A stretch of DNA of 64,000 bases from a phage. The DNA is taken from the sequence record PZ445487.1. The stretch is one strand, 5' to 3'. The notes below the pieces were generated by a model. That model did not search any database. It was not told where the DNA came from and worked only from the letters and a program-made list of their open reading frames with translations. Made by a program: the position numbers and the translations under genes. Below are positions 16,810 to 47,538 of the stretch, in pieces (positions within the stretch are counted from its first letter, which is position 1; the number at the start of each line of letters is the position of its first letter).

Positions 16810-17555
16810 TGGTTTCTCTACAGGCTTTGCGCAAACTTAATGACTTTGAAAATCGTCATCATACATTTCAGCAATATTCCTTGCCGTTTAAGGAACTGAC
16901 TTGCGTAACTACCGAAAATGGTCGTCACTATGTTTCCCCCACTGGAGTCAAACTAACTTCAGTGACGACCATGTTAGGGCGTACTGGTGACCACACATGG
17001 TTAGAAGCCTGGCGGGACAAGTTGGGGCATGAAGCTGCTGATATAGAAACACATCGTTGCGCAGACCGTGGGGAAAAACTTCATTTGGCTTGTGAGTTGT
17101 ATCTCAAAAACAGACCAATGAAGGAAGTTCTGGAAGCTGCAGGGGAATACGTGTTTATGTTCAAACAGGTTTTCCCCTACCTTAACAAAATGAGCAAGAT
17201 ATATGCACAAGAGATTCCATTATATAGCGAAGTCCTGGGTCTTGCTGGTCGTGTTGACCTCATCGGGGTTTACGAAGGAATTCCAAGCATAATCGATTTC
17301 AAAACATCTAACACCCTAAAAACTCGAAGCATGATAGAAGATTATAGTATTCAATTGTGTCTATACTCAGTCATGTTTCAACAAATGTTTAATGTCAAGA
17401 TAGAGCGTTTAATCAATATTATATCCAACGAAAATGCCCTTGTTCCCACCATAATCGAATTCGATCGCAAAGACGTTATTTCTAAAATGTTTGACCGTGT
17501 CCGTCTGTATCACAAAATGGACAAAGAACAGAAAGGAATCTGGGCGGATCGCTAA
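16809..17555 (+). CDS. Putative PD-(D/E)xK family nuclease
   Basis: GRVDLIG ... IIDFKTSN fits the D...(D/E)xK core of RecB/Cas4/lambda-exonuclease-type nucleases; ATG overlaps the preceding stop. Confidence 0.45.
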   Translation: MVSLQALRKLNDFENRHHTFQQYSLPFKELTCVTTENGRHYVSPTGVKLTSVTTMLGRTGDHTWLEAWRDKLGHEAADIETHRCADRGEKLHLACELYLKNRPMKEVLEAAGEYVFMFKQVFPYLNKMSKIYAQEIPLYSEVLGLAGRVDLIGVYEGIPSIIDFKTSNTLKTRSMIEDYSIQLCLYSVMFQQMFNVKIERLINIISNENALVPTIIEFDRKDVISKMFDRVRLYHKMDKEQKGIWADR

Positions 17556-17584
17556 ATACTCCATAATATTGGGGGAAATTAGTG

Positions 17585-37318: not shown

Positions 37319-37524
37319 TCGGGTTAATCCGTTATCTGTTCATATTCGTAATAACAACATTCATTTTATTTTTCTTTTTCAAATACTTGAAAGAGACTAA
37401 AATCTACCGGAGTAAACGTTGGCGCAAACGGGTGAGGGTAACTTTCCTACTGCTGATTTCTTCGGTTACAATAACTGCACTCACATTGGGTGCTTATATT
37501 TACATTTTTGAAGGAGTACATTGA
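37315..37524 (+). CDS. Small membrane protein (69 aa, two predicted TM segments)
   Basis: Hydrophobic stretches LIRYLFIFVITTFILFFFF and FLLLISSVTITALTLGAYIYIF; overlaps the downstream SPFH gene start. Confidence 0.4.
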   Translation: MIGLIRYLFIFVITTFILFFFFKYLKETKIYRSKRWRKRVRVTFLLLISSVTITALTLGAYIYIFEGVH

Positions 37525-38315
37525 TGTTCAAGAAACTGGTATTTGGCGCAATTATGGTCCTAGCGGCAAGCCTTCTTTCAGGCTGCGGCGGTGTTATCGA
37601 TGAAGGAAACGTCGGTGTTCGAACCCAATGGGGTGAAGTGGACATGAACCCTGTAACCGCAGGTATCTACACCAGTTTCGTTTCAAGTGTAGATGTCTAT
37701 ACGACTAAAGAAGCCGTCGTGAGTCTGACGAAAATGACGCCAAAGGCCAAAGACAACCTGACCTTGGAAGATCTGGATGTGGACGTTTATTACACACCGA
37801 ACGTCGCGAAGGTTCCTTGGTTCCATACCAAATTTGCAGGTCAGAGCGCTGAACTCGGTGACGGCACGATAGCGGTGGGATTCAACCTGGTTAAAACCGC
37901 CGCAGCATCCTCAACGATGGACGCCGTTTCTTCTTTGGATTCTATGACAATTCACACCCAACGGGCTGAGTTAGAAAAGATGATCAAGGAACGCACCCAG
38001 CAGCAATTAGAAACAGCTGCACCTGGCATGTTCACAATCACACGCGTGTTGGTCAAAAAGGCGCTGACAGATCCTTCGATTGAGCAATCTATCCGTGATA
38101 ATGTCATGGCCGACAAACGTTTGGATACAGCAAGAAAGAACGTTGAAATTCGCGACCAAGAAGCCAAGGCGAATCAGAAACTGACGACATCTCTGACACC
38201 TGAATATTTACAACACGAATATAACATGGTGTTGCAATCTTGCGCCAACAGCGGGAAATGTACTCTGATTGTTGATGGTTCAGGCTCAAGTAAAATGCTA
38301 AACGTCGGCAAATAA
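37521..38315 (+). CDS. Lipoprotein with SPFH/band-7-like domain
   Basis: Lipoprotein signal MMFKKLVFGAIMVLAASLLSGC; then IDEGNVGVRTQWGEV, resembling the start of SPFH domains; helical C-terminus. Confidence 0.5.
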   Translation: MMFKKLVFGAIMVLAASLLSGCGGVIDEGNVGVRTQWGEVDMNPVTAGIYTSFVSSVDVYTTKEAVVSLTKMTPKAKDNLTLEDLDVDVYYTPNVAKVPWFHTKFAGQSAELGDGTIAVGFNLVKTAAASSTMDAVSSLDSMTIHTQRAELEKMIKERTQQQLETAAPGMFTITRVLVKKALTDPSIEQSIRDNVMADKRLDTARKNVEIRDQEAKANQKLTTSLTPEYLQHEYNMVLQSCANSGKCTLIVDGSGSSKMLNVGK

Positions 38316-38398
38316 ACGCTTTATTCAATAATATTTGTTAGGTAAGCTGTAGTCCTCTTGTAGTGAAACATTGTAAACAACTAACTGGAGTAATCCGA

Positions 38399-38677
38399 AT
38401 GAACCGTACTGATTTTATTGCTCACATCGCCCAGACTCAGGGTATGACCAAAGGCGAAGCTGAGAAAATCGTTGCATCTTTTATCAATGGCGTGAAAACT
38501 GCAGTCGCGGCTGGCCAATCTGTCCAATTCGTAGGCTTCGGCGCGTTCGAAGTTAAACATCAGGAAGCGCGCACTGGCCGCAACCCGCTGAACGGACAAC
38601 AGATCCAGATCGAAGCGAAAAATGTAGTTAAATTCAAAGTCGGTGAAGGTCTGAAAGCTGCTGCCAACGGCCAGTAA
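38399..38677 (+). CDS. HU/IHF-family DNA-binding protein
   Basis: MNRTDFIAHIA...GEAEKIV..F...QFVGFGAFEVKHQEARTGRNPLNGQQIQIEAKNVVKFKVGEGLK matches the HU consensus including the RNP arm; SD ggag. Confidence 0.8.
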   Translation: MNRTDFIAHIAQTQGMTKGEAEKIVASFINGVKTAVAAGQSVQFVGFGAFEVKHQEARTGRNPLNGQQIQIEAKNVVKFKVGEGLKAAANGQ

Positions 38678-38737
38678 TCACACCAGGCGTCGGCCCAGCG
38701 CATGTCTGCAGTGCAGCGGCGCAAGGCTAAAAGGAGA

Positions 38738-38765
38738 AGCCGAGGTTAATGCCTCGGCTTTTTCG
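38738..38765 (+). terminator. Rho-independent terminator after the HU gene
   Basis: agccgagg-ttaat-gcctcggct followed by ttttt. Confidence 0.6.
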
Positions 38766-38812
38766 TTGTTGGGATTCGGGTAAACTATAACAGAATCCAA
38801 AGGAGGAACAAC

Positions 38813-40534
38813 GTGACAGCATTTAATCAACACCGAAAGGCGATTGACGCCATAGGCCGTAAGGTTCCTGTGGAAGAAATACAACGCCTTACCAAAGATG
38901 AATTCCCATATGACAAAGCGAACCCAGGCCAGATGGAATGCATCGTCGAAGCCATAGATGCGCTTATCAACAAAAAGGTTAAACATGTCATCATTGAAGC
39001 TCCGACAGGTGTCGGTAAATCTTTGATTGGCACTACCATTCATAAAGTGATTCGCCATCTAGTTTTACAGGCTGATCCTTATGGGCAATTTCGCACTTCT
39101 ATCAGCACCCCGACCAAAGGTCTGCAAGATCAGTATGCTGCTGAAAAGGCGGTGGCGATAGACATCCTAAAAGGCAAGAAGAACTATCGTTGCCACGTAC
39201 ATCCAGATGTGTATTACAATGCTGTCCAATGCCGTATAGCATGCCGTGACGGGCATTGTAGCAAACGCCGCTGTCCTTATGTACAGGCGCGTAATTTGTG
39301 GACGGATATTTCATCATTGCGTTGTACTAATGCTGCCATGATGATCGAAATGTGTACAACCATCTGCATGAAGCCCGAAAACCGTTCCGATATGCTGATC
39401 CTTGACGAGTGCCATAAAATGCCCTCTACGCTCCTAGAGCACACGATCATGGAATACAATACAAAGGCCGTGGAGGGGCTGCGTTCTATCCCTGAGGGCA
39501 AGGAGATCGTCTCTACCATTGGTGATATCGTAGAACGCACCAAGGACTATGTCCTGGGCAAGTTATATTCTTTGTCTGGTGAACTGCATTCAATGTTTGA
39601 AGCCCTCCATCTCAAAGTAGAAAATTTGTTGGAAGTTCTTGAAGAATTGGTCGAAGATGATCGCTTGAGTGAAAGCCAAGTGATGAAACTCGCCGACATT
39701 ATAGATGTCTTGCATAACTTGAGTGATTATTGCGGTATTATGTCACAAACCCAAGCAAGTACATTTATTGTGCAAGATAAGGGGGAAGATTTTATCCGGT
39801 TTAAACCTGTTATGCCTTCTGATGTAAGCGAATTCGGGTTATTCCGAAAAGCCGATTATCACGTTCATATGTCAGCAACGATCTGTGGTATAGATTCATA
39901 TGCTCGTTCATTGGGTATTCGACAGGGGGATTATCATTCCATTCAGATCGGCAACCCTATCCCGATTGAAAACAGAAAAGTCAACTATATGCCCATAGTG
40001 AAGATGACTAACAATATGGGTGACTATGAAATGAAAAGGTTGACGGAATATATTGATGAAATAATCGCGTTCCACCCAGGTCAGTCCGGCATTATCCATA
40101 CAGTGAGTTATGATCGCGCCTTGGCAATACAAAAATTCAGCAAATATCAGAATTTTATCCATGTTCCGCGTACCCGAAAGGCGTTGATGGATATTATGGA
40201 AAATGCTTTTAGAACAAAGTCCCCATGCGTCATTGCCAGTCCGGCTATGGAAGAAGGTTATGATTTCAAAGGGGATTACAGCCGTTTCCAAATACTGATC
40301 AAAGTCCCTTATGATTATCTGGGCGATCCACTGATAGCACATATCAATTCAGTGGATCCGTCGGCATACTTCCGCAATGCAGTACTGCGCATTGTTCAAA
40401 TGTGTGGACGTTCGGTCAGGGGTGTTGATGACTGGGCTGCGACATACATCATTGATTCATCCTTTGAATCTCTTATGATGCGCAACCCAGAATTCTTCCC
40501 AACCTGGTTCACCGATGCAGTGTTTGAGGTTTAA
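38813..40534 (+). CDS. DinG/XPD-family (Rad3-like) FeS helicase
   Basis: GTG start with SD aaggagga; Walker A EAPTGVGKS, DECH box ILDECHK, four Cys between helicase motifs (CHVHPD...C...CRDGHC...RRCPY), motif VI GRSVRG. Confidence 0.7.
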   Translation: MTAFNQHRKAIDAIGRKVPVEEIQRLTKDEFPYDKANPGQMECIVEAIDALINKKVKHVIIEAPTGVGKSLIGTTIHKVIRHLVLQADPYGQFRTSISTPTKGLQDQYAAEKAVAIDILKGKKNYRCHVHPDVYYNAVQCRIACRDGHCSKRRCPYVQARNLWTDISSLRCTNAAMMIEMCTTICMKPENRSDMLILDECHKMPSTLLEHTIMEYNTKAVEGLRSIPEGKEIVSTIGDIVERTKDYVLGKLYSLSGELHSMFEALHLKVENLLEVLEELVEDDRLSESQVMKLADIIDVLHNLSDYCGIMSQTQASTFIVQDKGEDFIRFKPVMPSDVSEFGLFRKADYHVHMSATICGIDSYARSLGIRQGDYHSIQIGNPIPIENRKVNYMPIVKMTNNMGDYEMKRLTEYIDEIIAFHPGQSGIIHTVSYDRALAIQKFSKYQNFIHVPRTRKALMDIMENAFRTKSPCVIASPAMEEGYDFKGDYSRFQILIKVPYDYLGDPLIAHINSVDPSAYFRNAVLRIVQMCGRSVRGVDDWAATYIIDSSFESLMMRNPEFFPTWFTDAVFEV

Positions 40535-41298
40535 TAACCCGCAATAAACGATAAATGGCACTTGATATTTGGTTCAAGTGTCGTTATCGTGATAATCATA
40601 TTGTCCACATCTTGGCTGAAAGATATATTTGCGATCGGTTTGGTTTGAACATGATTATACAGGCTATAAATCAGATCTTCACCACGATAACCGATTTTGC
40701 CATCAGTGTCCTGCCAATGACCGAGGGTAGACTCTCGAGCGTGTACTCGGAATTCGACCATATGAAACAATGCTTTTGGGATGGTCTTCAGTATGCTGGT
40801 CCCAACAACCGGAATATCAATAGAAGAGTCGTTGGAGTTTCCTTCATAAACAGATTCCCAACCAAATATTGGATCACCTCCTGCCACAGGAGTTCTTTTC
40901 CAGTATTGGAATTCTGGGTTGCCCGAAGCGTTCTTTTGTAGGAGGATTACTTCACCGCCTTCAAAATTGGAAGTGTCTATATCGTCCCTTGCTAATAAAT
41001 CTGCCGGAGAACCAATAAATTTCCAAGTTTCGCGATCTAAAATAGACTTATAATAATCGGTGAATACGTTGCTGTCGTTAGCTGCATTGATTGCGTCTTT
41101 AAGACCTTCACCTGTGACCATCTCATTAAGTTTTAGCCACATGTTTTTGACAGCTGACGCAGCTGCGACTTGACCTTCAGTCCCACCCGCCGTGTAGTCA
41201 TAAATGATGTCCAGCTTTTGTATGGAATCATTTATAGACAAGAGCAAACGCTCAATTTCTGGGGCGGTCAGACTGAAACGATATGCGCGTTCTGACAT
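40531..41298 (-). CDS. Hypothetical protein (255 aa), opposite strand
   Basis: Minus-strand ORF converging on the helicase gene; SD gagga 7 nt upstream of its ATG. Confidence 0.5.
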   Translation of the reverse strand: MSERAYRFSLTAPEIERLLLSINDSIQKLDIIYDYTAGGTEGQVAAASAVKNMWLKLNEMVTGEGLKDAINAANDSNVFTDYYKSILDRETWKFIGSPADLLARDDIDTSNFEGGEVILLQKNASGNPEFQYWKRTPVAGGDPIFGWESVYEGNSNDSSIDIPVVGTSILKTIPKALFHMVEFRVHARESTLGHWQDTDGKIGYRGEDLIYSLYNHVQTKPIANISFSQDVDNMIITITTLEPNIKCHLSFIAGY

Positions 41299-41340
41299 GA
41301 TTCGTTCCTCATCGATAAAACCAGTTTGGGATACTTATAC

Positions 41341-41868
41341 ATGATTGAAATATACACTGACGGGGCATCGTCCCCTCAGAAGACACGAGCCGCTGGTTGG
41401 GCATTTGCCATCAGTCCAATCACTGGAGAGCAATGGAAAGTGTTTTATGGGTATTTACCCCCGCCGTCAACGAACAATATAGCTGAGTTACTCGGGGTTA
41501 TAAACGCAATGAAGATCCTATGGAAATTCTCTAATTGCGGTGAACGCTGCATTCCCCCAGCCCGCATTATATCCGACAGCCAATATGTTATCAATAGCGT
41601 TTTGGAGTGGCGTCGTAAATGGGAATATGAAGGAATGCCGCCTAAGAACACAGAACTTCTGCTCGAGTTGTTCGATTATTATGACAAAGTTTGTTCAATT
41701 TGTGAACTTGAATTAAAATGGGTGAAAGGTCATGCAGGAACGATGGGCAACGAAATTGCGGATCAGTGGAGCGTTAGAGCCAAAGAAGATAGTTCAATGG
41801 TTCTTGAAAATAACCGTTTCTCGGTCAAGAAAGTCGTTGGTTCTTTCAATGAATTCATTGGTATTTGA
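41341..41868 (+). CDS. Ribonuclease HI
   Basis: IEIYTDGAS...TNNIAEL...SDSQYVINSV...WVKGHAGTMGNEIAD follows the E. coli RNase HI catalytic blocks (D, E, D, H, D). Confidence 0.8.
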   Translation: MIEIYTDGASSPQKTRAAGWAFAISPITGEQWKVFYGYLPPPSTNNIAELLGVINAMKILWKFSNCGERCIPPARIISDSQYVINSVLEWRRKWEYEGMPPKNTELLLELFDYYDKVCSICELELKWVKGHAGTMGNEIADQWSVRAKEDSSMVLENNRFSVKKVVGSFNEFIGI

Positions 41869-41879
41869 GGATTATCACG

Positions 41880-42671
41880 ATGGGTATGAATTTTGTAGAC
41901 AGGGGTGATAACGTCACCAAATATTTCACAGACGAAGATAATGACCGTGTTGTTGGAATATTGAGAGATTGGATTCCGGCTCGCAAAAAGGCTTTGGCCG
42001 AAGGAACACCCCTACCAAGAATCCCCAATTATGTGGCCATGAATGTTCAGATGATTATTAAGAACATGAGTATGCGCTACAACTATCGTGATTATCCATA
42101 CCGCGAAGACATGGTCAGTGAGGCCGTTGTCAACATCCTTCGTTACCTCCATACATTTGACGTCAGTCATATCGGCAAGAAAGGAAAAATCAATTTCTTC
42201 TCTTGGGTAACGATGTGCGCCGATCGTTCATTCGCCAAGAAACTCACCAGTGAAGAAGAACACAATTATATCAAGTTGCGTTCATTTGAAGAAGCAGGTG
42301 GTTTCGCTGCATTATCAGATGACCCAGACTTCCAGCAACAGACATTCGTAGACAGCACTGGTATAACAATGGACTTCCGTGAGCGTATCGGAAATTTTGA
42401 AACTAAGAAAGAAGCACAGCGCGAAAAGGAACGCCAAAAGCAAATCGCCATCAAAGAAGAGGAAAAGAATAAGAAAATTCCTCGCGGTATACTTCAATGT
42501 CTCACAAAGAGTGAAAATACCATTACCGCCGACGCCGAAGATAATTCAGACTATGACTTCGGCTCTACTCAATTCAATCTGGAAGACGAAATATGTTCTA
42601 TGGAACCAGATTGGGAAGAAGCAAAGAAACGAGCATTAGAACGGGAGCAACAAAATAATGGCGATTGCTAA
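41880..42671 (+). CDS. 55: Late-transcription sigma factor (gp55-like), extended
   Basis: Region VAMNVQMIIKNMSMRYNYRDY...NILRYLHTFD...FFSWVTMCADRSF parallels T4 gp55 (LAIMLIAEGLSKRFNFSGY...KGLHNFD...YITQACFNAFVQRI); gene order 55-47-46 as in T4. Confidence 0.5.
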   Translation: MGMNFVDRGDNVTKYFTDEDNDRVVGILRDWIPARKKALAEGTPLPRIPNYVAMNVQMIIKNMSMRYNYRDYPYREDMVSEAVVNILRYLHTFDVSHIGKKGKINFFSWVTMCADRSFAKKLTSEEEHNYIKLRSFEEAGGFAALSDDPDFQQQTFVDSTGITMDFRERIGNFETKKEAQREKERQKQIAIKEEEKNKKIPRGILQCLTKSENTITADAEDNSDYDFGSTQFNLEDEICSMEPDWEEAKKRALEREQQNNGDC

Positions 42672-43773
42672 AATAGGCGATTTACATATCGGGAGCCGTA
42701 ATGGTTCCCGTTACGTTCGAGAATTCATAAAGAATTATCTCATCAATTATTTTATTCCAGAATTGGTTGACGCCGATATTAAAGAAGTGTGGCAATTTGG
42801 TGATACGTTTGATGTTCGCAAATTCATGTATGGTCGCGATAAAGATTGGTTGAAAGATGAATTGACGCCAGCGCTGCGCAAAGCAGGTATTAAATGGAAT
42901 GGCATCGTCGGCAACCATGATATCACGTTAGAAGAGTCCAATCGTATTAACTGGCCTTCTTATCTTAATGAATTGGCACCGGATGTTTATCATTATTACA
43001 GCGAACCAACTGAAGTAATGATTGAAGGTGTCAAGACCCTCCTACTGCCGTGGATTAACAAAGAGAACTATGATGCGTCCATTAAAGCGATACAAGATAC
43101 AGACGCCAAGTACTGTTTTGCGCATCTGGAGTTGGCAGGGTTCAAAATGTACCAGTCCTCTGTATGTGATAAAGGTCAGATCGACGTGGCGCTCCTTTCG
43201 AAATTCGAGCGCGTGGATACCGGACATTTCCATACCCGTTCGATGGAAGGTAACATTCAGTATATTGGGACTCCTTATCACCTTACCTGGGAAGACCACA
43301 AAGACGGGACGAACCGAGGATTCTATGTAGACGACATGAATGGCGGGGAATTGTTTATCCCCAACAACGAACAACAAACGTTGTTCCGGTTCGTGGAATA
43401 CGACTACACCCAAATGTCTTCTGATACTGAAGGTAATTGGATCGACCCCGATTGGTTAAACAATGTTTTGGGTATTGAAGGGCAAATCGTTAAGGTGATT
43501 GTACAGAACCGTGACAATGCCAAGCATTATGAAAAGTTCTGTGACGCATTGAAGCGCTGTAAATGCATCGATTACAACTTCATCGATCGGACGATTACTG
43601 TTGCTTCCGAGAAGGTAGAAGTCACTGAAGAGATGGTGGCTACTGATGCGGTGGAAGTCTTGAAGAAAGATATCCGCGCCGCCAATAATATCCAGCGCCC
43701 TGAAAATGTTTGCAAATTAGCAGAACAATTCTATAATGCTGCCCAACAACGCCTGAACACATTGGATGCATAA
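42658..43773 (+). CDS. 47: Recombination nuclease subunit gp47 (Mre11/SbcD-like)
   Basis: Metallophosphatase motifs GDLHIG, GDTFD, GNHD, HLE; directly upstream of the Rad50-like gene. Confidence 0.85.
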   Translation: MAIAKIGDLHIGSRNGSRYVREFIKNYLINYFIPELVDADIKEVWQFGDTFDVRKFMYGRDKDWLKDELTPALRKAGIKWNGIVGNHDITLEESNRINWPSYLNELAPDVYHYYSEPTEVMIEGVKTLLLPWINKENYDASIKAIQDTDAKYCFAHLELAGFKMYQSSVCDKGQIDVALLSKFERVDTGHFHTRSMEGNIQYIGTPYHLTWEDHKDGTNRGFYVDDMNGGELFIPNNEQQTLFRFVEYDYTQMSSDTEGNWIDPDWLNNVLGIEGQIVKVIVQNRDNAKHYEKFCDALKRCKCIDYNFIDRTITVASEKVEVTEEMVATDAVEVLKKDIRAANNIQRPENVCKLAEQFYNAAQQRLNTLDA

Positions 43774-43775
43774 TA

Positions 43776-46109
43776 ATGAACAATGTAGACCTATTATCAA
43801 AATTTGGTTCGCTGTTGAAAGAAGCGGACACTCCTGTTTCTGTTGAAGTACCATTTGAAATTCGTGGGGAAATTACCCACAAACTGACTTTCCATCGCGG
43901 TCGCGCTAAAAACTTCCGTTCTATCGGTAATGAATTCATGGAAATTGATTACCAACGCAATTCGGCAACCTTGGTTACATCCGATGACAATGGCGCTGGT
44001 AAATCCACCATGCTTGTCTGGCTGCTGTTCTTCGTTCTGTATAATGACACATATAGCAAGAAAGAAAAGAAAGCCGGATTAGTCAATTCCCAAAACAAAA
44101 AGGAATGCGTGGGTGAAGTTGAGTTCTCCACTCGAGGAAGTGAATGGAAAGTCCGTCGTGGTATCAAACCTGATTTCGTAGAAGTCTATCAGATGGTAGA
44201 CGGTGAGTGGAAGCAGGTCGTGAATGATGCGGCCAAAGCCGACATGAACAAATATATTGTGAACCTGATTGGCGTAGACCAGAAGATGTTTGAGAACTCC
44301 CTGGTTCTAGGCAAAGAGAAGTTCATCCCATTCACGGAAATGTACACTGCCGACCGTCGCGCTATGGTAGAGACAATCTGGGATTTGGGGTTCTTCAGTC
44401 TGATGAATGAAGATGTAAAAGCATCTATCAAGACAGTAACGAATGAACTCACGACGGTCACCAATGATTACGCCTTTCATGATGTAAATTTAAAAGGCCA
44501 GCAAGCGCAGTTGGAACAGATCAATAATTCCAATGCGATGATCCAGCAACAATCTGCGGATATCCTTGTCCAAGAGAAGGAACGTCTGAATAGCCTGAAT
44601 TCAGATATCAACGCAGTGCAGGAACAACTGACAGAGTCCCGTGCTCAAGACTCTAAATTGGAATCAGAATTATCAGAAGTCCGTAATCGCCTGAACGCTG
44701 AAATGAAGGTGGATATCGATTCCATCAATGACGAGTATTTTGCCAAAATTCAAGCGGTTCAGGATGAGGCTGATACCAAGGCTGAAGACTATGAGCGTAT
44801 CGAGGTGTCTGATGGCGAACGTTCATTACAAGAAATTCGGGAGAGAATGGCGGTAGTCGCGGAACGTAAAAATGATCTGGTTAGCCAACGGAATGCTAAC
44901 CTGGATGAACTGAACAAAGCATTAGCGCGGCGTCAGCAGGGTGAGAACTTCCGTATCAAATTCGTAACAGAAATGGAAGGACATGAATCTGCCATCAAAC
45001 GTTTCCACGATATGGGCACTTGCCCTACGTGTACGCAATTAGTGTCGGACGATACCAAATCACGCATTGAAAGTCAATATTATCCACAAATCAGTGAACT
45101 GACTGACAAGATTCTTCAGGTTGATACAGCCCTAGAAGAAGTGAATTCCCTGATTGAGAATTACAATGTCAGAGATTCAGAATTATCTTCTCAGATTTCG
45201 GTTATTGACAAAGAACTGGATGCTTTGCGCAATGAAATTCGAGAAGCGGAATCGGCGATCGCTACATTAAAACGCGACATCCAAGGTTTCTACGAAGTTG
45301 CGGCGGTTGAGAAAACATCTTTACAGCGGGAACAACAGTCCAAAATTAACGACGTCCTCAAGGCCGTAGACACCCGTTACGAAGATATCACGACGTCAAT
45401 CCGTCAAGCCCGTGAGCAGCTCTCTAAGAGTATCAACGACACGGCTGATAAACTCACCAGCCTGAAATCACTCCGTGCCCCTCTGGAGGCATCCATTGCT
45501 GATTTAGAGCGTAAATTGGCGGTTAAGCCGACACCAACTGACGCCCTGGAAGAAGAGATCGCTCGCATCACGGCATTAATGGAAGATCTGAATGCGCGGC
45601 GCGTAGAGTTGGATGAGAAATTGCAAGACCTGAACCATCTTCTGTTCTTCCTAAAAGATGATCAGACCAAGGCTCGAATTATCAGTCTGTATTTGCCTTT
45701 CCTCAATAGTAAAATAAACGAGTATCTTGAAGCACTCAATATGTTCTTGGATATTGCTGTTGATGATACATTTGAAATCACCATGAGCGCTGCTGGTCGT
45801 AAAGGGCAAAGCATATTCTCCCTGTCTACAGGACAACGCAGCCGACTCAATCTGGCTGTGACATTAGCCCTACGGGACGTCGCTAACCTGAAGGCGTCTG
45901 TACAATGTAACCTCTTCGTGTTGGATGAGATACTCGAAAACATGAGTGAGCGAGGGGTTCAAGAATCCATCGAGATGCTGAAACATAAATTTGGTGGGAA
46001 CAATCTGTTTGTCATCAGTCAGCGTGAGCAGGAGTTCCAAGAATATTTCCAACATAACATTCGTTATGGTCTGCGTAATGGCATGACCGAAGTGATTAAG
46101 AAGGATTGA
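43776..46109 (+). CDS. 46: Recombination ATPase subunit gp46 (Rad50/SbcC-like)
   Basis: Walker A DDNGAGKST, long coiled-coil with CPTC zinc hook, signature LSTGQRSRLNLA, Walker B LFVLDE. Confidence 0.85.
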   Translation: MNNVDLLSKFGSLLKEADTPVSVEVPFEIRGEITHKLTFHRGRAKNFRSIGNEFMEIDYQRNSATLVTSDDNGAGKSTMLVWLLFFVLYNDTYSKKEKKAGLVNSQNKKECVGEVEFSTRGSEWKVRRGIKPDFVEVYQMVDGEWKQVVNDAAKADMNKYIVNLIGVDQKMFENSLVLGKEKFIPFTEMYTADRRAMVETIWDLGFFSLMNEDVKASIKTVTNELTTVTNDYAFHDVNLKGQQAQLEQINNSNAMIQQQSADILVQEKERLNSLNSDINAVQEQLTESRAQDSKLESELSEVRNRLNAEMKVDIDSINDEYFAKIQAVQDEADTKAEDYERIEVSDGERSLQEIRERMAVVAERKNDLVSQRNANLDELNKALARRQQGENFRIKFVTEMEGHESAIKRFHDMGTCPTCTQLVSDDTKSRIESQYYPQISELTDKILQVDTALEEVNSLIENYNVRDSELSSQISVIDKELDALRNEIREAESAIATLKRDIQGFYEVAAVEKTSLQREQQSKINDVLKAVDTRYEDITTSIRQAREQLSKSINDTADKLTSLKSLRAPLEASIADLERKLAVKPTPTDALEEEIARITALMEDLNARRVELDEKLQDLNHLLFFLKDDQTKARIISLYLPFLNSKINEYLEALNMFLDIAVDDTFEITMSAAGRKGQSIFSLSTGQRSRLNLAVTLALRDVANLKASVQCNLFVLDEILENMSERGVQESIEMLKHKFGGNNLFVISQREQEFQEYFQHNIRYGLRNGMTEVIKKD

Positions 46110-46920: not shown

Positions 46921-47538
46921 ATGACGATGACAACGTTGAAGGCCATGGCCTTGTCCGTGACCTTTACCATTGCCAGCGGGAGTGTGCACGCTTCCCAAAG
47001 TACCACCCAATGTGATTACGAATTTTCTGATCAACAACTTTCAACCATGGCCACAGCCTATCACATAGGCAAACAACAAGACCTTGGTTTCACCCTCGCC
47101 GCGATATCATGGAGGGAAAGCCGCGCCGGAGAAGATGTTGTATCCATGCGGAATAACCTGAAATCGGCTAACATGGGGGCATTTCAAAATCGCGTCCAAA
47201 CCGTCGGGAAACGGGAGGGATGCAAAACACAGAAGTGTTACGCCAATGTCGCGATCAAATTACTGGTCAATCAAGAATATGCTGCCAATGCTGCCCTTGA
47301 TGAAATGAATTTCTGGCTAGAATATCACAACCAAAACATTCGCAAATCCCTTTCCTCTTACAATGCTGGGTTCAATCGTAACCAGAAATCCAATTCTTAT
47401 GCAGCCGACGTCGTGAAGAAGGCTAAATATCTTCAACGATGTGTGTCTTTCAAAAGCATGGCAATAAACCCAAAGGTCGACCCAGGAGTGATCGCCATGA
47501 ATAAGCGCACGATTGAGAAACTCAAGAGGACCAGATAA
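46921..47538 (+). CDS. Secreted lytic transglycosylase-like protein
   Basis: Signal peptide MTMTTLKAMALSVTFTIASGSVHA; AISWRESR (candidate catalytic Glu-Ser) and SYNAGFNR (YNxG motif) as in SLT-domain enzymes. Confidence 0.45.
   Translation: MTMTTLKAMALSVTFTIASGSVHASQSTTQCDYEFSDQQLSTMATAYHIGKQQDLGFTLAAISWRESRAGEDVVSMRNNLKSANMGAFQNRVQTVGKREGCKTQKCYANVAIKLLVNQEYAANAALDEMNFWLEYHNQNIRKSLSSYNAGFNRNQKSNSYAADVVKKAKYLQRCVSFKSMAINPKVDPGVIAMNKRTIEKLKRTR

What the first reader, a model, noticed from the sequence alone, without database searches (positions are those of the whole stretch)
38813..41298. DinG/XPD-type FeS helicase with a convergent opposite-strand gene
T4 itself uses Dda and UvsW and has no Rad3-type FeS helicase that I know of. 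This one carries the four-Cys insert typical of XPD/DinG and is followed by a minus-strand gene of unknown function with a strong SD.
Basis: partly seen in the sequence, partly recalled or inferred. Interest (0 to 1): 0.4.

Follow-up and report, generated by a model that had tools for sequence, protein, structure and literature searches.

The report
Phage CBA120 DinG-like helicase, virion gene
The region holds two real, already annotated genes of E. coli phage CBA120: an XPD/DinG-type helicase with a conserved four-cysteine (iron-sulfur) site, and on the opposite strand a late virion gene whose tail end resembles the fibre socket of phage T4 protein gp9; both are ordinary for this phage family, and only the gp9 link is new.

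Summary
The window is 100% identical to Escherichia phage CBA120 (Kuttervirus, Ackermannviridae), not T4.

**Helicase.** ORF 38813-40534 (+) is CBA120 orf124, annotated 'putative ATP-dependent helicase'. It is an XPD/DinG-family SF2 helicase.
- It has intact Walker A, DECH and motif VI, and a Helicase_C_2 domain.
- The AF2 model (pLDDT 89.9) has a top-40 PDB match list made up only of DinG, XPD and CasDinG structures.
- Four cysteines (C127, C140, C149, C154) are invariant in 42 homologs down to 32% identity. Three align with E. coli DinG Fe-S ligands C120, C199 and C205.
- It is not an ortholog of DinG, YoaA or Rad3. It belongs to a phage-borne clade.
- CBA120 has gp41 and UvsW but no Dda, so I infer an accessory 5'-3' helicase role in replication and recombination.

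**Minus-strand gene.** ORF 41298-40531 (-) is orf123, a conserved late structural gene.
- Its orthologs were detected in purified virions of Sajous1 (39 spectra) and LIMEstone1 (8 peptides).
- A late-promoter-like box lies 32 nt upstream and is conserved across genera.
- New here: its C-terminal 98 residues are homologous to the C-terminal domain of T4 gp9 (hhalign 96-97%, best PDB fold match 1qex).

Overall this is ordinary and largely already annotated. Interest is low to moderate.

The parts
38737..38760 (+). G+C-rich hairpin followed by a T run. It is terminator-like, lies between the HU-like gene (38363-38677) and the helicase gene, and reads as a hairpin on both strands.
   Evidence: Sequence AAGCCGAGGTTAATGCCTCGGCTT+TTTCGTTGTT. 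The scan flagged it on the - strand. LIMEstone1 annotates a factor-independent terminator at the equivalent place.
38800..38806 (+). Shine-Dalgarno sequence AAGGAGG of the helicase gene, 6 nt before the GTG start.
38813..40534 (+). orf124: XPD/DinG-family SF2 DNA helicase, 573 aa, 65.2 kDa.
   Evidence: ORF. CBA120 annotation. phrog_2488 E 1.6e-264. Pfam Helicase_C_2, ResIII, DEAD. AF2 pLDDT 89.9. Foldseek top hits DinG and XPD.
38999..39022 (+). Walker A / motif I, APTGVGKS (residues 63-70).
   Evidence: G66, G68, K69 and S70 are invariant in 42 homologs.
39191..39274 (+). Four-cysteine (predicted 4Fe-4S) insert: C127-x12-C140-x8-C149-x4-C154, followed by PY.
   Evidence: All four Cys are invariant. 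Profile alignment to E. coli DinG pairs C127 with C120, C149 with C199 and C154 with C205. It also pairs C154 with Rad3 C191. Coordinates.
39404..39415 (+). Motif II, DECH (DEAH-type), residues 198-201.
   Evidence: D198, E199 and H201 are invariant.
39425..39802 (+). Mostly helical insertion in helicase domain 1 (about residues 205-330), at the position of the Arch domain of XPD/DinG. Boundaries are approximate.
   Evidence: Long helices 229-242, 256-280 and 287-312 in the AF2 model. Full-length structural alignment to DinG and XPD.
40205..40510 (+). Helicase_C_2 (PF13307) region of helicase domain 2, including motif VI QMCGRSVRG (40397-40423).
   Evidence: Pfam E 7.1e-12, 46.1 bits against a cut-off of 25.3. 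Q529, G532, R533, R536 and G537 are invariant.
40531..40534 (.). TTAA: overlapping stop codons of the two convergent genes. No terminator lies between them.
   Evidence: The same 4-nt overlap is seen in Sajous1, AG3, PP35, Magnus, phiEa2809 and LIMEstone1.
40531..41298 (-). orf123: late virion protein, 255 aa, 28.5 kDa (phrog_3833).
   Evidence: ORF. phrog_3833 E 4e-165. It is 97% identical to Sajous1 gp203, which gave 39 spectra in CsCl-purified virions. LIMEstone1 ORF093 is annotated 'confirmed structural protein', 28.32 kDa, 8 peptides.
40537..40830 (-). C-terminal beta-sandwich domain of orf123 (residues 157-254), homologous to the C-terminal (fibre-socket) domain of T4 gp9.
   Evidence: AF2 pLDDT above 90 for residues 160-255. 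The best PDB fold match is T4 gp9, 1qex, E 3e-7. BFVD matches include gp9 proteins of Aeromonas phage 65 and Vibrio phage nt-1. hhalign against the gp9 family gives 94.9-97.2% probability and E 4e-11 to 5e-8, pairing with gp9 residues 176-281.
41305..41310 (-). Shine-Dalgarno sequence GAGGAA of orf123.
41331..41338 (-). Late-promoter-like box ATAAGTAT, 32 nt upstream of the orf123 ATG. It abuts the probable true start codon of the divergent RNase HI gene (ATG at 41341).
   Evidence: The family consensus [A/C]TAAATA[C/T] lies 22-41 nt upstream of 17 CBA120 genes. The orthologous site is canonical in AG3, PP35, Magnus, VP-1 and D533, and is ATAAATAA in phiEa2809. It is annotated as a putative late promoter in LIMEstone1.

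Best explanation
**Overall.** These are two independent, conserved genes of phage CBA120 that happen to converge.

**(1) orf124, the helicase.**
- Shown: it is a compact XPD/DinG-family superfamily-2 helicase. It has a two-RecA-domain motor with intact ATPase motifs. A four-cysteine insert and an Arch-like helical insert sit in domain 1, and domain 2 is of the Helicase_C_2 type.
- Inferred from the family: the four invariant cysteines hold a 4Fe-4S cluster. Together with the Arch domain this forms the channel and wedge through which ssDNA is pulled 5'->3'.
- Inferred from context: it is an early or middle gene inside the conserved block HU - helicase - [orf123] - RNase HI - gp55 - gp47 - gp46. 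It serves the T4-type replication and recombination machinery as an accessory 5'-3' helicase. Its likely jobs are clearing R-loops, D-loops or bound proteins ahead of forks, or helping recombination. This is a job T4 gives to Dda, which CBA120 lacks.

**(2) orf123, the minus-strand gene.**
- Shown in close relatives: its product is a virion component.
- Inferred: it is a late gene, transcribed from a gp55-type promoter box 32 nt upstream of its start.
- Shown by profile and fold comparison: its C-terminal domain is homologous to the C-terminal domain of T4 gp9. In T4 that domain is where a trimeric fibre docks.
- Inferred: orf123 is a peripheral tail or baseplate adaptor that holds a trimeric partner, possibly the tailspike complex.

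**Why the genes converge.** This reflects the T4-like habit of scattering late structural genes on the opposite strand inside early/middle clusters.
For: **Identity and annotation.** The window is 100% identical to CBA120 orf124 and orf123.

**Helicase family.**
- Pfam PF13307.
- NCBIfam hits are only to DinG, YoaA, dinG_rel and rad3 models.
- PDB sequence hits are DinG, Rad3, XPD, CHL1 and FANCJ.
- AF2 model pLDDT 89.9, pTM 0.89.
- Ranks 1-39 in the PDB are all XPD/DinG/CasDinG structures, led by 6fws DinG at E 4e-26.

**Fe-S site.** Four Cys are invariant among the 49 invariant columns. Three are aligned to DinG ligands.

**A phage clade.**
- 498 phage records carry a homolog: Ackermannviridae, Vibrio and Rhizobium phages, haloviruses and jumbo phages.
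- Two metagenomic contexts examined look like phage genomes.

**Importance for the phage.** Both genes are retained in the 118.6-kb genome-reduced Kuttervirus mutant selz_497L. That mutant lost 36 kb, including neighbours upstream of the HU gene (PMC9825161).

**Helicase repertoire of CBA120.** gp41, gp59 and UvsW are annotated. There is no Dda by annotation or by tblastn with T4 Dda, best E 0.33.

**orf123.**
- Virion mass spectrometry in Sajous1 and LIMEstone1.
- Promoter box conserved across six genera-level lineages.
- Conserved synteny with the helicase and RNase HI genes.
- gp9 C-terminal domain homology.
- In T4, the long tail fibres attach coaxially to the gp9 C-terminal domain (PMC3004832).
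Against: **Helicase.**
- No biochemistry exists for any member of this phage helicase clade. Metal content, polarity and substrates are all inferred.
- I could not read the model coordinates, so I did not verify that the four Cys converge in space.
- Only three of the four Cys align column-for-column with DinG ligands.
- NCBIfam scores are far below the equivalog cut-offs (57.6 against 598 for DinG). Functional transfer from DinG, YoaA or XPD is therefore loose.
- The 'Dda substitute' idea rests only on the absence of Dda and on shared polarity and monomeric style.
- Retention in the reduced genome is not proof of essentiality. The per-gene tables of that paper were not available.

**orf123.**
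- Only the last 98 residues relate to gp9. The N-terminal 156 residues show no detectable relation to gp9 (hhalign P 0.24) and are poorly modelled (pLDDT below 50).
- Its location within the virion is not known.
- The CBA120 promoter box carries one mismatch to the consensus (ATAAGTAT).
- No transcript data exist.
Confidence: 0.8

Rival explanations
1. The helicase works mainly with the neighbouring gp46/gp47 (Rad50/Mre11-like) nuclease and UvsX/UvsY in double-strand-break processing and recombination-dependent replication. This would be a repair/recombination helicase like YoaA or XPD. It would not be a fork-clearing, Dda-like accessory helicase.
For: The gene lies three genes from gp47/gp46 in a block conserved from Kuttervirus to Vibrio phages. 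NCBIfam gives nearly equal scores to the YoaA repair helicase and to DinG. CBA120 carries the full T4 recombination set.
Against: Proximity in T4-like genomes is weak evidence of partnership. gp55 (a transcription factor) and a virion gene sit in the same block. No interaction data exist. This overlaps with the best explanation and does not exclude it.
Confidence: 0.3
2. The four cysteines do not hold an Fe-S cluster. They bind zinc or are only structural, and the protein works like the cluster-less members of the family, such as CasDinG or Staphylococcus DinG.
For: The insert is unusually short, with 28 residues spanning all four Cys. The strongest named profile hit is a PADLOC model labelled as type IV-A CRISPR-associated DinG, E 5.8e-50. 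From my own knowledge, canonical CasDinG has only a vestigial Fe-S domain.
Against: Invariance of exactly these four Cys down to 32% identity. Alignment of three of them to proven DinG ligands, including the hallmark C-P-Y/F. The canonical Csf4 models hit only weakly (26 and 18 bits). No CasDinG chain is found by the sequence profile in the PDB.
Confidence: 0.1
3. The convergent, terminator-less overlap is itself functional. Late transcription of orf123 runs antisense through the helicase gene and shuts helicase expression off late in infection, and early transcription does the reverse.
For: The stop codons overlap in TTAA with no hairpin between the genes. The 4-nt overlap is conserved in six other phages. 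orf123 has a late-type promoter while the helicase gene sits in an early/middle-type cluster.
Against: In Vibrio phages VP-1 and D533 the two genes are separated by about 450 nt or by an extra gene, so the overlap is not conserved family-wide. Compact convergent gene ends are common in phages. There are no transcript data.
Confidence: 0.12
4. orf123 is a virion protein but not a baseplate adaptor. Examples would be a head or neck decoration protein, or a fibre-like protein that merely shares a common beta-sandwich module.
For: Only the C-terminal domain matches gp9. The same fold also matches N-terminal parts of many tail fibres and tailspikes, and unrelated beta-sandwiches at weaker scores. 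The gene is far from the tail and baseplate clusters.
Against: T4 gp9 is the single best PDB match. The next matches are a baseplate chain and tailspike anchor regions, all tail-periphery proteins. hhalign is specific for the gp9 C-terminal domain at E about 1e-9. PF23618 T4_gp9_10_C is the only Pfam family hit by several family members.
Confidence: 0.3
5. The helicase is a defence or counter-defence factor, related to CRISPR type IV DinG or to Hna-like systems, and is not a replication protein.
For: PADLOC typeIV_DinG 'associated' model at E 5.8e-50 over the full length. Hna appears among the fold matches. A jumbo-phage homolog lies near the anti-defence genes Tad3 and Acb3.
Against: There are no cas or other defence genes around it in CBA120 or its relatives. 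It sits in a conserved replication, recombination and late-transcription block. It is retained in the minimal selz genome grown on a single host. Fold and sequence similarity is highest to housekeeping DinG and XPD.
Confidence: 0.05

Closest known systems
E. coli DinG (PDB 6fwr/6fws) and the bacterial DinG/YoaA group
   Same: SF2 motor with the Helicase_C_2 domain. Cys spacing is DinG-like, with three closely spaced C-terminal ligands ending in C-P-Y/F. It is the best sequence and best fold match in the PDB.
   Different: Sequence identity is only about 15%. It is 573 aa against 716 aa, with a much shorter Fe-S insert. NCBIfam scores are a tenth of the equivalog cut-offs. It is phage-encoded, in a replication and recombination block.
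Archaeal/eukaryotic XPD/Rad3 (e.g. Thermoplasma XPD 4a15/9p55, yeast Rad3)
   Same: Similar size (about 550-620 aa for archaeal XPD). Four-domain layout of HD1, Fe-S, Arch and HD2. The last Cys aligns with Rad3 C191.
   Different: The spacing of the first three cysteines differs. TIGR00604 rad3 scores 27 against a cut-off of 247. There is no TFIIH or NER context.
T4 Dda (SF1B 5'-3' accessory helicase)
   Same: The proposed role only: a non-replicative 5'-3' helicase serving a T4-type replisome. CBA120 has gp41, gp59, UvsW, UvsX and UvsY but no Dda.
   Different: A different superfamily and fold, with no sequence similarity. The functional equivalence is an inference and was not tested.
Type IV CRISPR-associated DinG (CasDinG/Csf4)
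   Same: The same helicase family. A PADLOC 'typeIV_DinG, CAS-IV-A associated' model matches end to end at E 5.8e-50. CasDinG structures are among the fold matches.
   Different: There are no cas genes nearby. Canonical Csf4 models match weakly. The phage protein keeps four invariant cysteines, whereas CasDinG has a vestigial cluster domain (my own knowledge).
T4 gp9 (baseplate wedge / long-tail-fibre connector, PDB 1qex/1s2e), for orf123
   Same: Virion protein of similar size (255 against 288 aa). Homologous C-terminal beta-sandwich domain. Late gene.
   Different: The N-terminal 156 residues are unrelated to the gp9 coiled-coil and middle domains. There is no Pfam PF07880 hit. The baseplate location and trimeric state are untested. 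The gene lies in a replication cluster, not beside baseplate genes.
LIMEstone1 ORF093 / Sajous1 gp203 (orthologs of orf123)
   Same: 82-97% identical orthologs in the same convergent position. They are annotated 'confirmed structural protein' with a putative late promoter.
   Different: None of substance. These records show that the gene's existence, timing class and virion location were already public. No function or gp9 relationship was assigned there.

Membership tests
XPD/DinG (Rad3-related) SF2 Fe-S helicases | SF2 ATPase/helicase motifs (Walker A GxGKS/T, DEAH-type motif II, motif VI QxxGRxxR) | tested here: met
   APTGVGKS (63-70), DECH (198-201) and QMCGRSVRG (529-537). The key residues are invariant in 42 homologs.
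XPD/DinG (Rad3-related) SF2 Fe-S helicases | Family-specific C-terminal helicase domain (Pfam PF13307 Helicase_C_2) | tested here: met
   E 7.1e-12, 46.1 bits against a gathering score of 25.3, residues 465-566.
XPD/DinG (Rad3-related) SF2 Fe-S helicases | Four conserved cysteines inserted between motifs Ia and II, at the position of the 4Fe-4S domain | tested here: met
   C127, C140, C149 and C154 are invariant. C127 pairs with DinG C120, C149 with C199 and C154 with C205 (also Rad3 C191) in the profile alignment. C140 lies 4 residues before the DinG C194 column.
XPD/DinG (Rad3-related) SF2 Fe-S helicases | An actual 4Fe-4S cluster bound by these cysteines | not testable with these tools
   This needs spectroscopy or metal analysis.
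XPD/DinG (Rad3-related) SF2 Fe-S helicases | Overall four-domain fold (HD1 with Fe-S and Arch inserts, HD2) | tested here: met
   AF2 model pLDDT 89.9. Foldseek ranks 1-39 in the PDB are all DinG, XPD, Rad3, CHL1 or CasDinG, E 4e-26 to 3e-15, TM 0.50-0.67.
XPD/DinG (Rad3-related) SF2 Fe-S helicases | Pfam DEAD_2 (PF06733) N-terminal signature | tested here: not met
   No hit at E <= 0.01 for the query. Only 1 of 120 listed homologs carries it. This is a marker of the cellular subfamilies and not a requirement of the fold.
XPD/DinG (Rad3-related) SF2 Fe-S helicases | ATP-dependent 5'-3' unwinding | not testable with these tools
   A biochemical assay is needed.
E. coli-type DinG / YoaA / Rad3 orthologous groups (NCBIfam equivalogs) | Score above the curated equivalog or subfamily cut-off | tested here: not met
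   DinG NF008729 scores 57.6 against 598. YoaA scores 53 against 680. rad3 TIGR00604 scores 27.3 against 247. It is a member of the superfamily and not an ortholog of these.
Type IV CRISPR CasDinG (Csf4) | Match to core Csf4 models and a location in a type IV cas locus | tested here: not met
   Csf4_0_IVA scores 26 bits and Csf4_3_IVE 18 bits. Only an 'associated' DinG model matches strongly. There are no cas genes in the CBA120 neighbourhood.
T4 gp9 family (baseplate wedge tail-fibre connector), for orf123 | C-terminal domain (Pfam PF23618 T4_gp9_10_C) | tested here: met
   hhalign of the orf123 family against the gp9 family gives 94.9-97.2% probability, E 4.1e-11 to 4.7e-8, pairing residues 157-254 with gp9 176-281. 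The best PDB fold match is 1qex. PF23618 is weakly hit by 5 of 38 family members, though not by the CBA120 protein itself.
T4 gp9 family (baseplate wedge tail-fibre connector), for orf123 | N-terminal coiled coil and middle beta-sandwich domain (Pfam PF07880 T4_gp9_10) | tested here: not met
   hhalign of residues 1-157 against gp9 gives probability 0.3%, P 0.24. There is no PF07880 hit. The AF2 model of this half has low confidence.
T4 gp9 family (baseplate wedge tail-fibre connector), for orf123 | Component of the virion, at the baseplate periphery, as a trimer | tested here: inconclusive
   Virion presence is shown for orthologs by mass spectrometry. The position in the virion and the oligomeric state were not tested.
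T4-type late genes (gp55/gp33/gp45-dependent) | Late promoter box upstream of the gene, with no -35 element | tested here: met
   ATAAGTAT lies 32 nt upstream. The consensus [A/C]TAAATA[C/T] lies 22-41 nt upstream of 17 genes, mostly structural. The orthologous site is canonical in five of the six other lineages and ATAAATAA in phiEa2809. It is annotated as a late promoter in LIMEstone1. The actual transcription start was not tested.

The most novel reading that the evidence does not exclude
orf123 is the missing peripheral baseplate 'socket' of Ackermannviridae. It would be a trimeric adaptor that uses its gp9-type C-terminal domain to dock the N-terminal anchor domain of tailspike TSP4, and so the whole branched four-tailspike complex, to the baseplate. 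This would contradict the current view that these phages lack any gp9-gp11-type peripheral baseplate protein (review PMC11721090). It would also name the unknown partner of the TSP4 anchor (PMC8825819).
Probability: 0.3. Interest if true: 0.5.

Novelty: new member of a known kind. Interest (0 to 1): 0.3.

Why it matters
**Helicase.** It shows that a large, widespread clade of lytic phages pairs a T4-type replisome with an XPD/DinG-type (probably Fe-S) helicase instead of Dda. The clade includes Ackermannviridae, Vibrio and Rhizobium phages, haloviruses and some jumbo phages. It gives a compact 573-aa member that would be convenient for biochemistry. This is useful context but not surprising, because the gene has been annotated as a helicase since 2011.

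**Minus-strand gene.** The practical gain is that a 'hypothetical' or 'unknown structural' protein of the Kuttervirus phages used for biocontrol can now be proposed as a gp9-type adaptor. That matters for understanding and engineering how the exchangeable tailspike complex is mounted on the baseplate.

Tried and rejected
- **T4 late-promoter consensus.** TATAAATA occurs once in the window, at chance level, so the T4 consensus does not apply. I replaced it with a motif derived from upstream regions of CBA120 structural genes.
- **Sigma-70 promoter and terminator scan of 38000-42200.** Counts were at shuffle level and nothing was usable.
- **orf123 by sequence.** There are no Pfam or NCBIfam hits. 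A profile search of PDB sequences found nothing even at E 10.
- **First hhalign with the shallow orf123 alignment (Neff 2.1).** It gave only 9% probability, with a tempting collinear alignment through the gp9 middle domain (TDYYKS/TGYYQK, DDIDTS/HDIDTS). With the deeper alignment this N-terminal part did not hold up (P 0.24). Only the C-terminal domain is supported.
- **Weak multi-repeat hits of the orf123 profile to long proteins.** These are unrelated repeat proteins (DUF2922, lectin-like, GLUG) and were discarded.
- **Per-gene essentiality tables of the genome-reduction paper.** They are not held. I used the deposited reduced genome instead.
- **Transcriptome data.** No paper on Kuttervirus transcription was found. 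No paper on DinG function in these phages was found either.
- **CRISPR or defence context for helicase homologs.** The two contigs examined are phage-like, with no cas genes.
- **Cys-Cys distances in the AF2 model.** I could not measure them because the coordinates were not exposed.


Full report
**What the window is.** A 4-kb query around the finding is 100% identical to Escherichia phage CBA120 (JN593240.1; Kuttervirus, Ackermannviridae). It is 99% identical to many Salmonella Kutterviruses. The window + strand is the record's - strand, and the window covers record positions 46302-110301. The two ORFs are CBA120 orf124 ('putative ATP-dependent helicase') and orf123 ('conserved hypothetical phage protein'). 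Upstream lie an SPFH lipoprotein gene and an HU-like gene. Downstream lie RNase HI, gp55 (late sigma factor), gp47 and gp46. So this is not T4. It is a distant relative with T4-like replication, recombination and late-transcription modules.

**The observation.**
- The + strand ORF runs 38813-40534 (573 aa). It starts with GTG 6 nt after AAGGAGG.
- A terminator-like hairpin (38737-38760) separates it from the HU gene.
- The - strand ORF runs 41298-40531 (255 aa). It starts with ATG 6 nt after GAGGAA.
- The stop codons overlap in TTAA (40531-40534).

**The helicase: family.**
- Pfam gives Helicase_C_2 (PF13307, above its cut-off), ResIII and DEAD. PHROGs gives phrog_2488 'DNA helicase' at E 1.6e-264.
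- By sequence, the best solved relative is E. coli DinG. With a profile of 42 homologs, the PDB hits are Finegoldia DinG, E. coli DinG, Rad3/XPD, CHL1, FANCJ and archaeal XPDs.
- The AlphaFold2 model built on that alignment is confident (pLDDT 89.9, pTM 0.89).
- Its first 39 Foldseek matches in the PDB are all DinG, XPD, Rad3, CHL1 or CasDinG structures, with E 4e-26 to 3e-15.
- The Walker A, DECH and motif VI residues are invariant.

**The helicase: the cysteines.**
- The protein has 14 cysteines. Exactly four are invariant across 42 homologs down to 32% identity: C127, C140, C149 and C154, with spacing C-x12-C-x8-C-x4-C-P-Y.
- In the profile alignment, C127 pairs with DinG C120 (the N-Y-x-C / R-Y-V-C motif). 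C149 pairs with C199, and C154 with C205. C154 also pairs with Rad3 C191.
- From my own knowledge, C120, C194, C199 and C205 are the published DinG cluster ligands.
- The pairwise alignment puts the non-conserved C144 opposite DinG C194, with the invariant C140 four residues earlier.
- Cluster binding itself cannot be shown with these tools. I could not access the model coordinates to check the geometry.

**The helicase: what kind of member.**
- NCBIfam hits only DinG, YoaA, dinG_rel and rad3 models, at about a tenth of their curated cut-offs. It belongs to the superfamily but is not an ortholog of any characterised cellular helicase.
- Homologs occur in 498 phage records: all Ackermannviridae genera, many Vibrio phages, Rhizobium phages, haloarchaeal tailed viruses (annotated 'Rad3-related DNA helicase'), an Acinetobacter phage and jumbo or mega-phages.
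- There are at least 559 protein clusters in the metagenome-scale database. Two metagenomic contexts I examined look like phage genomes.
- One GenBank record already names its copy dinG. The AG3 record notes similarity to the halovirus HF2 helicase. The family assignment is therefore not new.
- PADLOC gave an unexpectedly strong end-to-end match (E 5.8e-50) to a model labelled 'typeIV_DinG, CAS-IV-A associated'. The core Csf4 models match weakly. No cas genes are nearby, and I cannot inspect what that model was built from.

**The helicase: likely role (inferred).**
- CBA120 encodes gp41, gp59, gp61, gp32, gp43/44/62/45, UvsX, UvsY, UvsW, gp46/47 and a RuvC-like protein.
- It has no Dda by annotation. 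tblastn with T4 Dda against the whole genome gives a best E of 0.33.
- XPD/DinG helicases are 5'-3' ssDNA translocases. From my own knowledge, E. coli DinG unwinds R-loops and D-loops and helps forks cross transcription units, and T4 Dda is a 5'-3' accessory helicase with related tasks.
- I therefore propose an accessory 5'-3' helicase for replication and recombination, filling the Dda niche.
- The conserved neighbourhood with a true RNase HI fits an R-loop theme, but only as a hint.
- Both orf124 and orf123 are retained in selz_497L, a viable 118.6-kb derivative of a 154.8-kb Kuttervirus obtained by iterative CRISPR deletion. That mutant lost the genes just upstream of HU (PMC9825161).
- This suggests both genes are hard to lose. 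The per-gene tables were not available.

**The minus-strand gene: it is real, late and structural.**
- It belongs to phrog_3833 at E 4e-165.
- tblastn finds it in 360 phage records, down to 30-35% identity in Vibrio Ackermannviridae.
- An exhaustive HMMER search finds only 57 cluster representatives in 1.84 billion proteins, nearly all 245-260 aa.
- The arrangement RNase HI <- | orf123 -> | <- helicase is conserved in Agtrevirus, Limestonevirus, Taipeivirus, Nezavisimistyvirus, Vapseptimavirus and Vibrio phage D533.
- Sajous1 gp203 is 97% identical and in the same position. It is listed with 39 spectra in CsCl-purified virions (PMC10892097, Table 6).
- LIMEstone1 ORF093 occupies the same position and is annotated 'confirmed structural protein'. 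It was recovered with 40.8% coverage and 8 unique peptides at 28.32 kDa (PMC3296691, Table 2). CBA120 orf123 is 28.46 kDa.

**The late promoter.**
- T4's TATAAATA is not enriched. The 2011 CBA120 paper says the late promoter of ViI-like phages was unknown (PMC3184105).
- Upstream regions of CBA120 structural genes share [A/C]TAAATA[C/T].
- That 8-mer occurs 25 times in 150 kb. My rough base-composition estimate (not from a tool) puts this near chance overall.
- However, 17 of the 25 lie 22-41 nt upstream of an annotated start on the same strand. About 0.3 would be expected.
- The genes concerned are gp19, gp26, gp5, gp22, gp18, gp14, gp6, three tailspikes, orf209, orf108, orf109, orf192, orf229, uvsW and the RuvC-like gene (read).
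- orf123 has ATAAGTAT 32 nt upstream (41331-41338, - strand), which is one mismatch. The gp23 gene has the same G variant at the right distance.
- At the orthologous position, AG3 and PP35 have ATAAATAT and Magnus has ATAAATAC. Vibrio VP-1 has CTAAATAC and D533 has CTAAATAT, all canonical. phiEa2809 has ATAAATAA, whose last base departs from the consensus.
- LIMEstone1 annotates a 'putative late promoter' there.
- Within the 25-99 kb early/middle block of the record, the opposite-strand genes are gp19, gp26, gp5, gp25, orf123 and orf170. Four of these six are known structural genes.

**The minus-strand gene: the gp9 link (new here).**
- The AF2 model is poor for residues 1-155 but confident (pLDDT above 90) for a C-terminal beta-sandwich at 160-255.
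- Its best match in the whole PDB is T4 gp9 (1qex, E 3e-7). Next come a baseplate chain of Klebsiella phage KP1, and then the N-terminal anchor regions of tail fibres and tailspikes.
- In BFVD, beyond its own family, it matches gp9-type proteins of Aeromonas phage 65 and Vibrio phage nt-1, a baseplate wedge subunit of Aeromonas phage phiAS4, and cyanophage tail-fibre proteins.
- Profile-profile comparison with a T4 gp9 family alignment (A3) gave only 9% probability with the shallow alignment.
- With the deeper alignment A4 (Neff 5.2) it gave 94.9-97.2% probability and E 4e-11 to 5e-8. The match is confined to orf123 residues 157-254 against gp9 residues 176-281.
- Pfam PF23618 (T4_gp9_10_C) is the only family hit by several A4 members: 5 of 38, best E 0.004.
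- The N-terminal 156 residues are not detectably related to gp9 (P 0.24).
- orf123 is therefore not a gp9 ortholog. It is a virion protein carrying the gp9/gp10-type C-terminal module.
- The current Ackermannviridae review states that these phages lack the peripheral gp9-gp11 proteins (PMC11721090). The baseplate partner of the TSP4 anchor domain is unknown (PMC8825819).
- That makes 'orf123 is the socket for the tailspike complex' an attractive hypothesis, but it is unproven. I put it at about 0.3.

**Verdict.**
- The helicase is an uncharacterised but already annotated phage member of a well-known family.
- The convergent gene is a known late structural gene, for which I add a domain-level link to T4 gp9.
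- Nothing here is categorically new. Interest is low to moderate (0.3).

Noticed in passing
window 41341-41868 (+); the GenBank CDS starts at 41440: The CBA120 GenBank annotation of RNase HI (orf121) starts at a GTG at 41440, which cuts off the N-terminus. An ATG at 41341 gives MIEIYTDGAS..., the usual RNase HI start that includes the catalytic Asp. It also matches the 528-bp annotations in Sajous1, selz, PP35 and LIMEstone1. The Pfam RNase_H match begins at that residue. The intergenic gap to orf123 is then only 42 nt.
   Followed up: partly
whole CBA120 genome; within the window e.g. 17552-17559 (+), upstream of uvsW: A candidate late-promoter consensus for CBA120 is [A/C]TAAATA[C/T], not T4's TATAAATA. 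It lies 22-41 nt upstream of 17 annotated starts, including uvsW and a RuvC-like gene as well as structural genes. The 2011 CBA120 paper says the late promoter was unidentified. The LIMEstone1 record annotates similar sites.
   Followed up: partly
window 38813-40534 (+): The strongest named profile hit for the helicase is a PADLOC model labelled 'typeIV_DinG, CAS-IV-A associated' (E 5.8e-50, end to end, model length 575). The core Csf4 models hit weakly. I could not find out what that model was built from. It may contain phage- or plasmid-type compact DinG-like helicases.
   Followed up: partly
MZ375358.1 (locus L006), equivalent to window about 37500-44000: The genome-reduced Kuttervirus mutant selz_497L (118.6 kb, down from 154.8 kb) keeps gp46, gp47, gp55, RNase HI, orf123, the helicase and HU. 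It has lost the SPFH lipoprotein gene and its neighbours (selz genes 190-194).
   Followed up: partly
Delftia phage PhiW-14 NC_013697.1 141781-142179 (gene 222): There is weak tblastn similarity (E 3e-5, 28% identity) between the N-terminal 6-139 residues of orf123 and a hypothetical protein of PhiW-14. From my own knowledge, PhiW-14 is another large myovirus with hypermodified thymidine. Many profile hits to orf123 also cover only the N-terminal ~135 residues, so the N- and C-terminal halves may be separable modules.
   Followed up: no
OR844945.1 'Enterococcus phage Efm 3-10' (7,937-bp record): This short record, labelled as an Enterococcus phage, carries a helicase 98% identical to the CBA120 protein. 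It is most likely a Kuttervirus contaminant or a mislabelled contig.
   Followed up: no
window 46921-47538 (+) (CBA120 orf114; Sajous1 gp211): The ortholog of orf114 is listed as 'RegB site-specific RNA endonuclease' with 31 spectra in purified Sajous1 virions, which is an unexpectedly high count for an RNA endonuclease. The CBA120 gene has a late-type box 77 nt upstream of its start.
   Followed up: no
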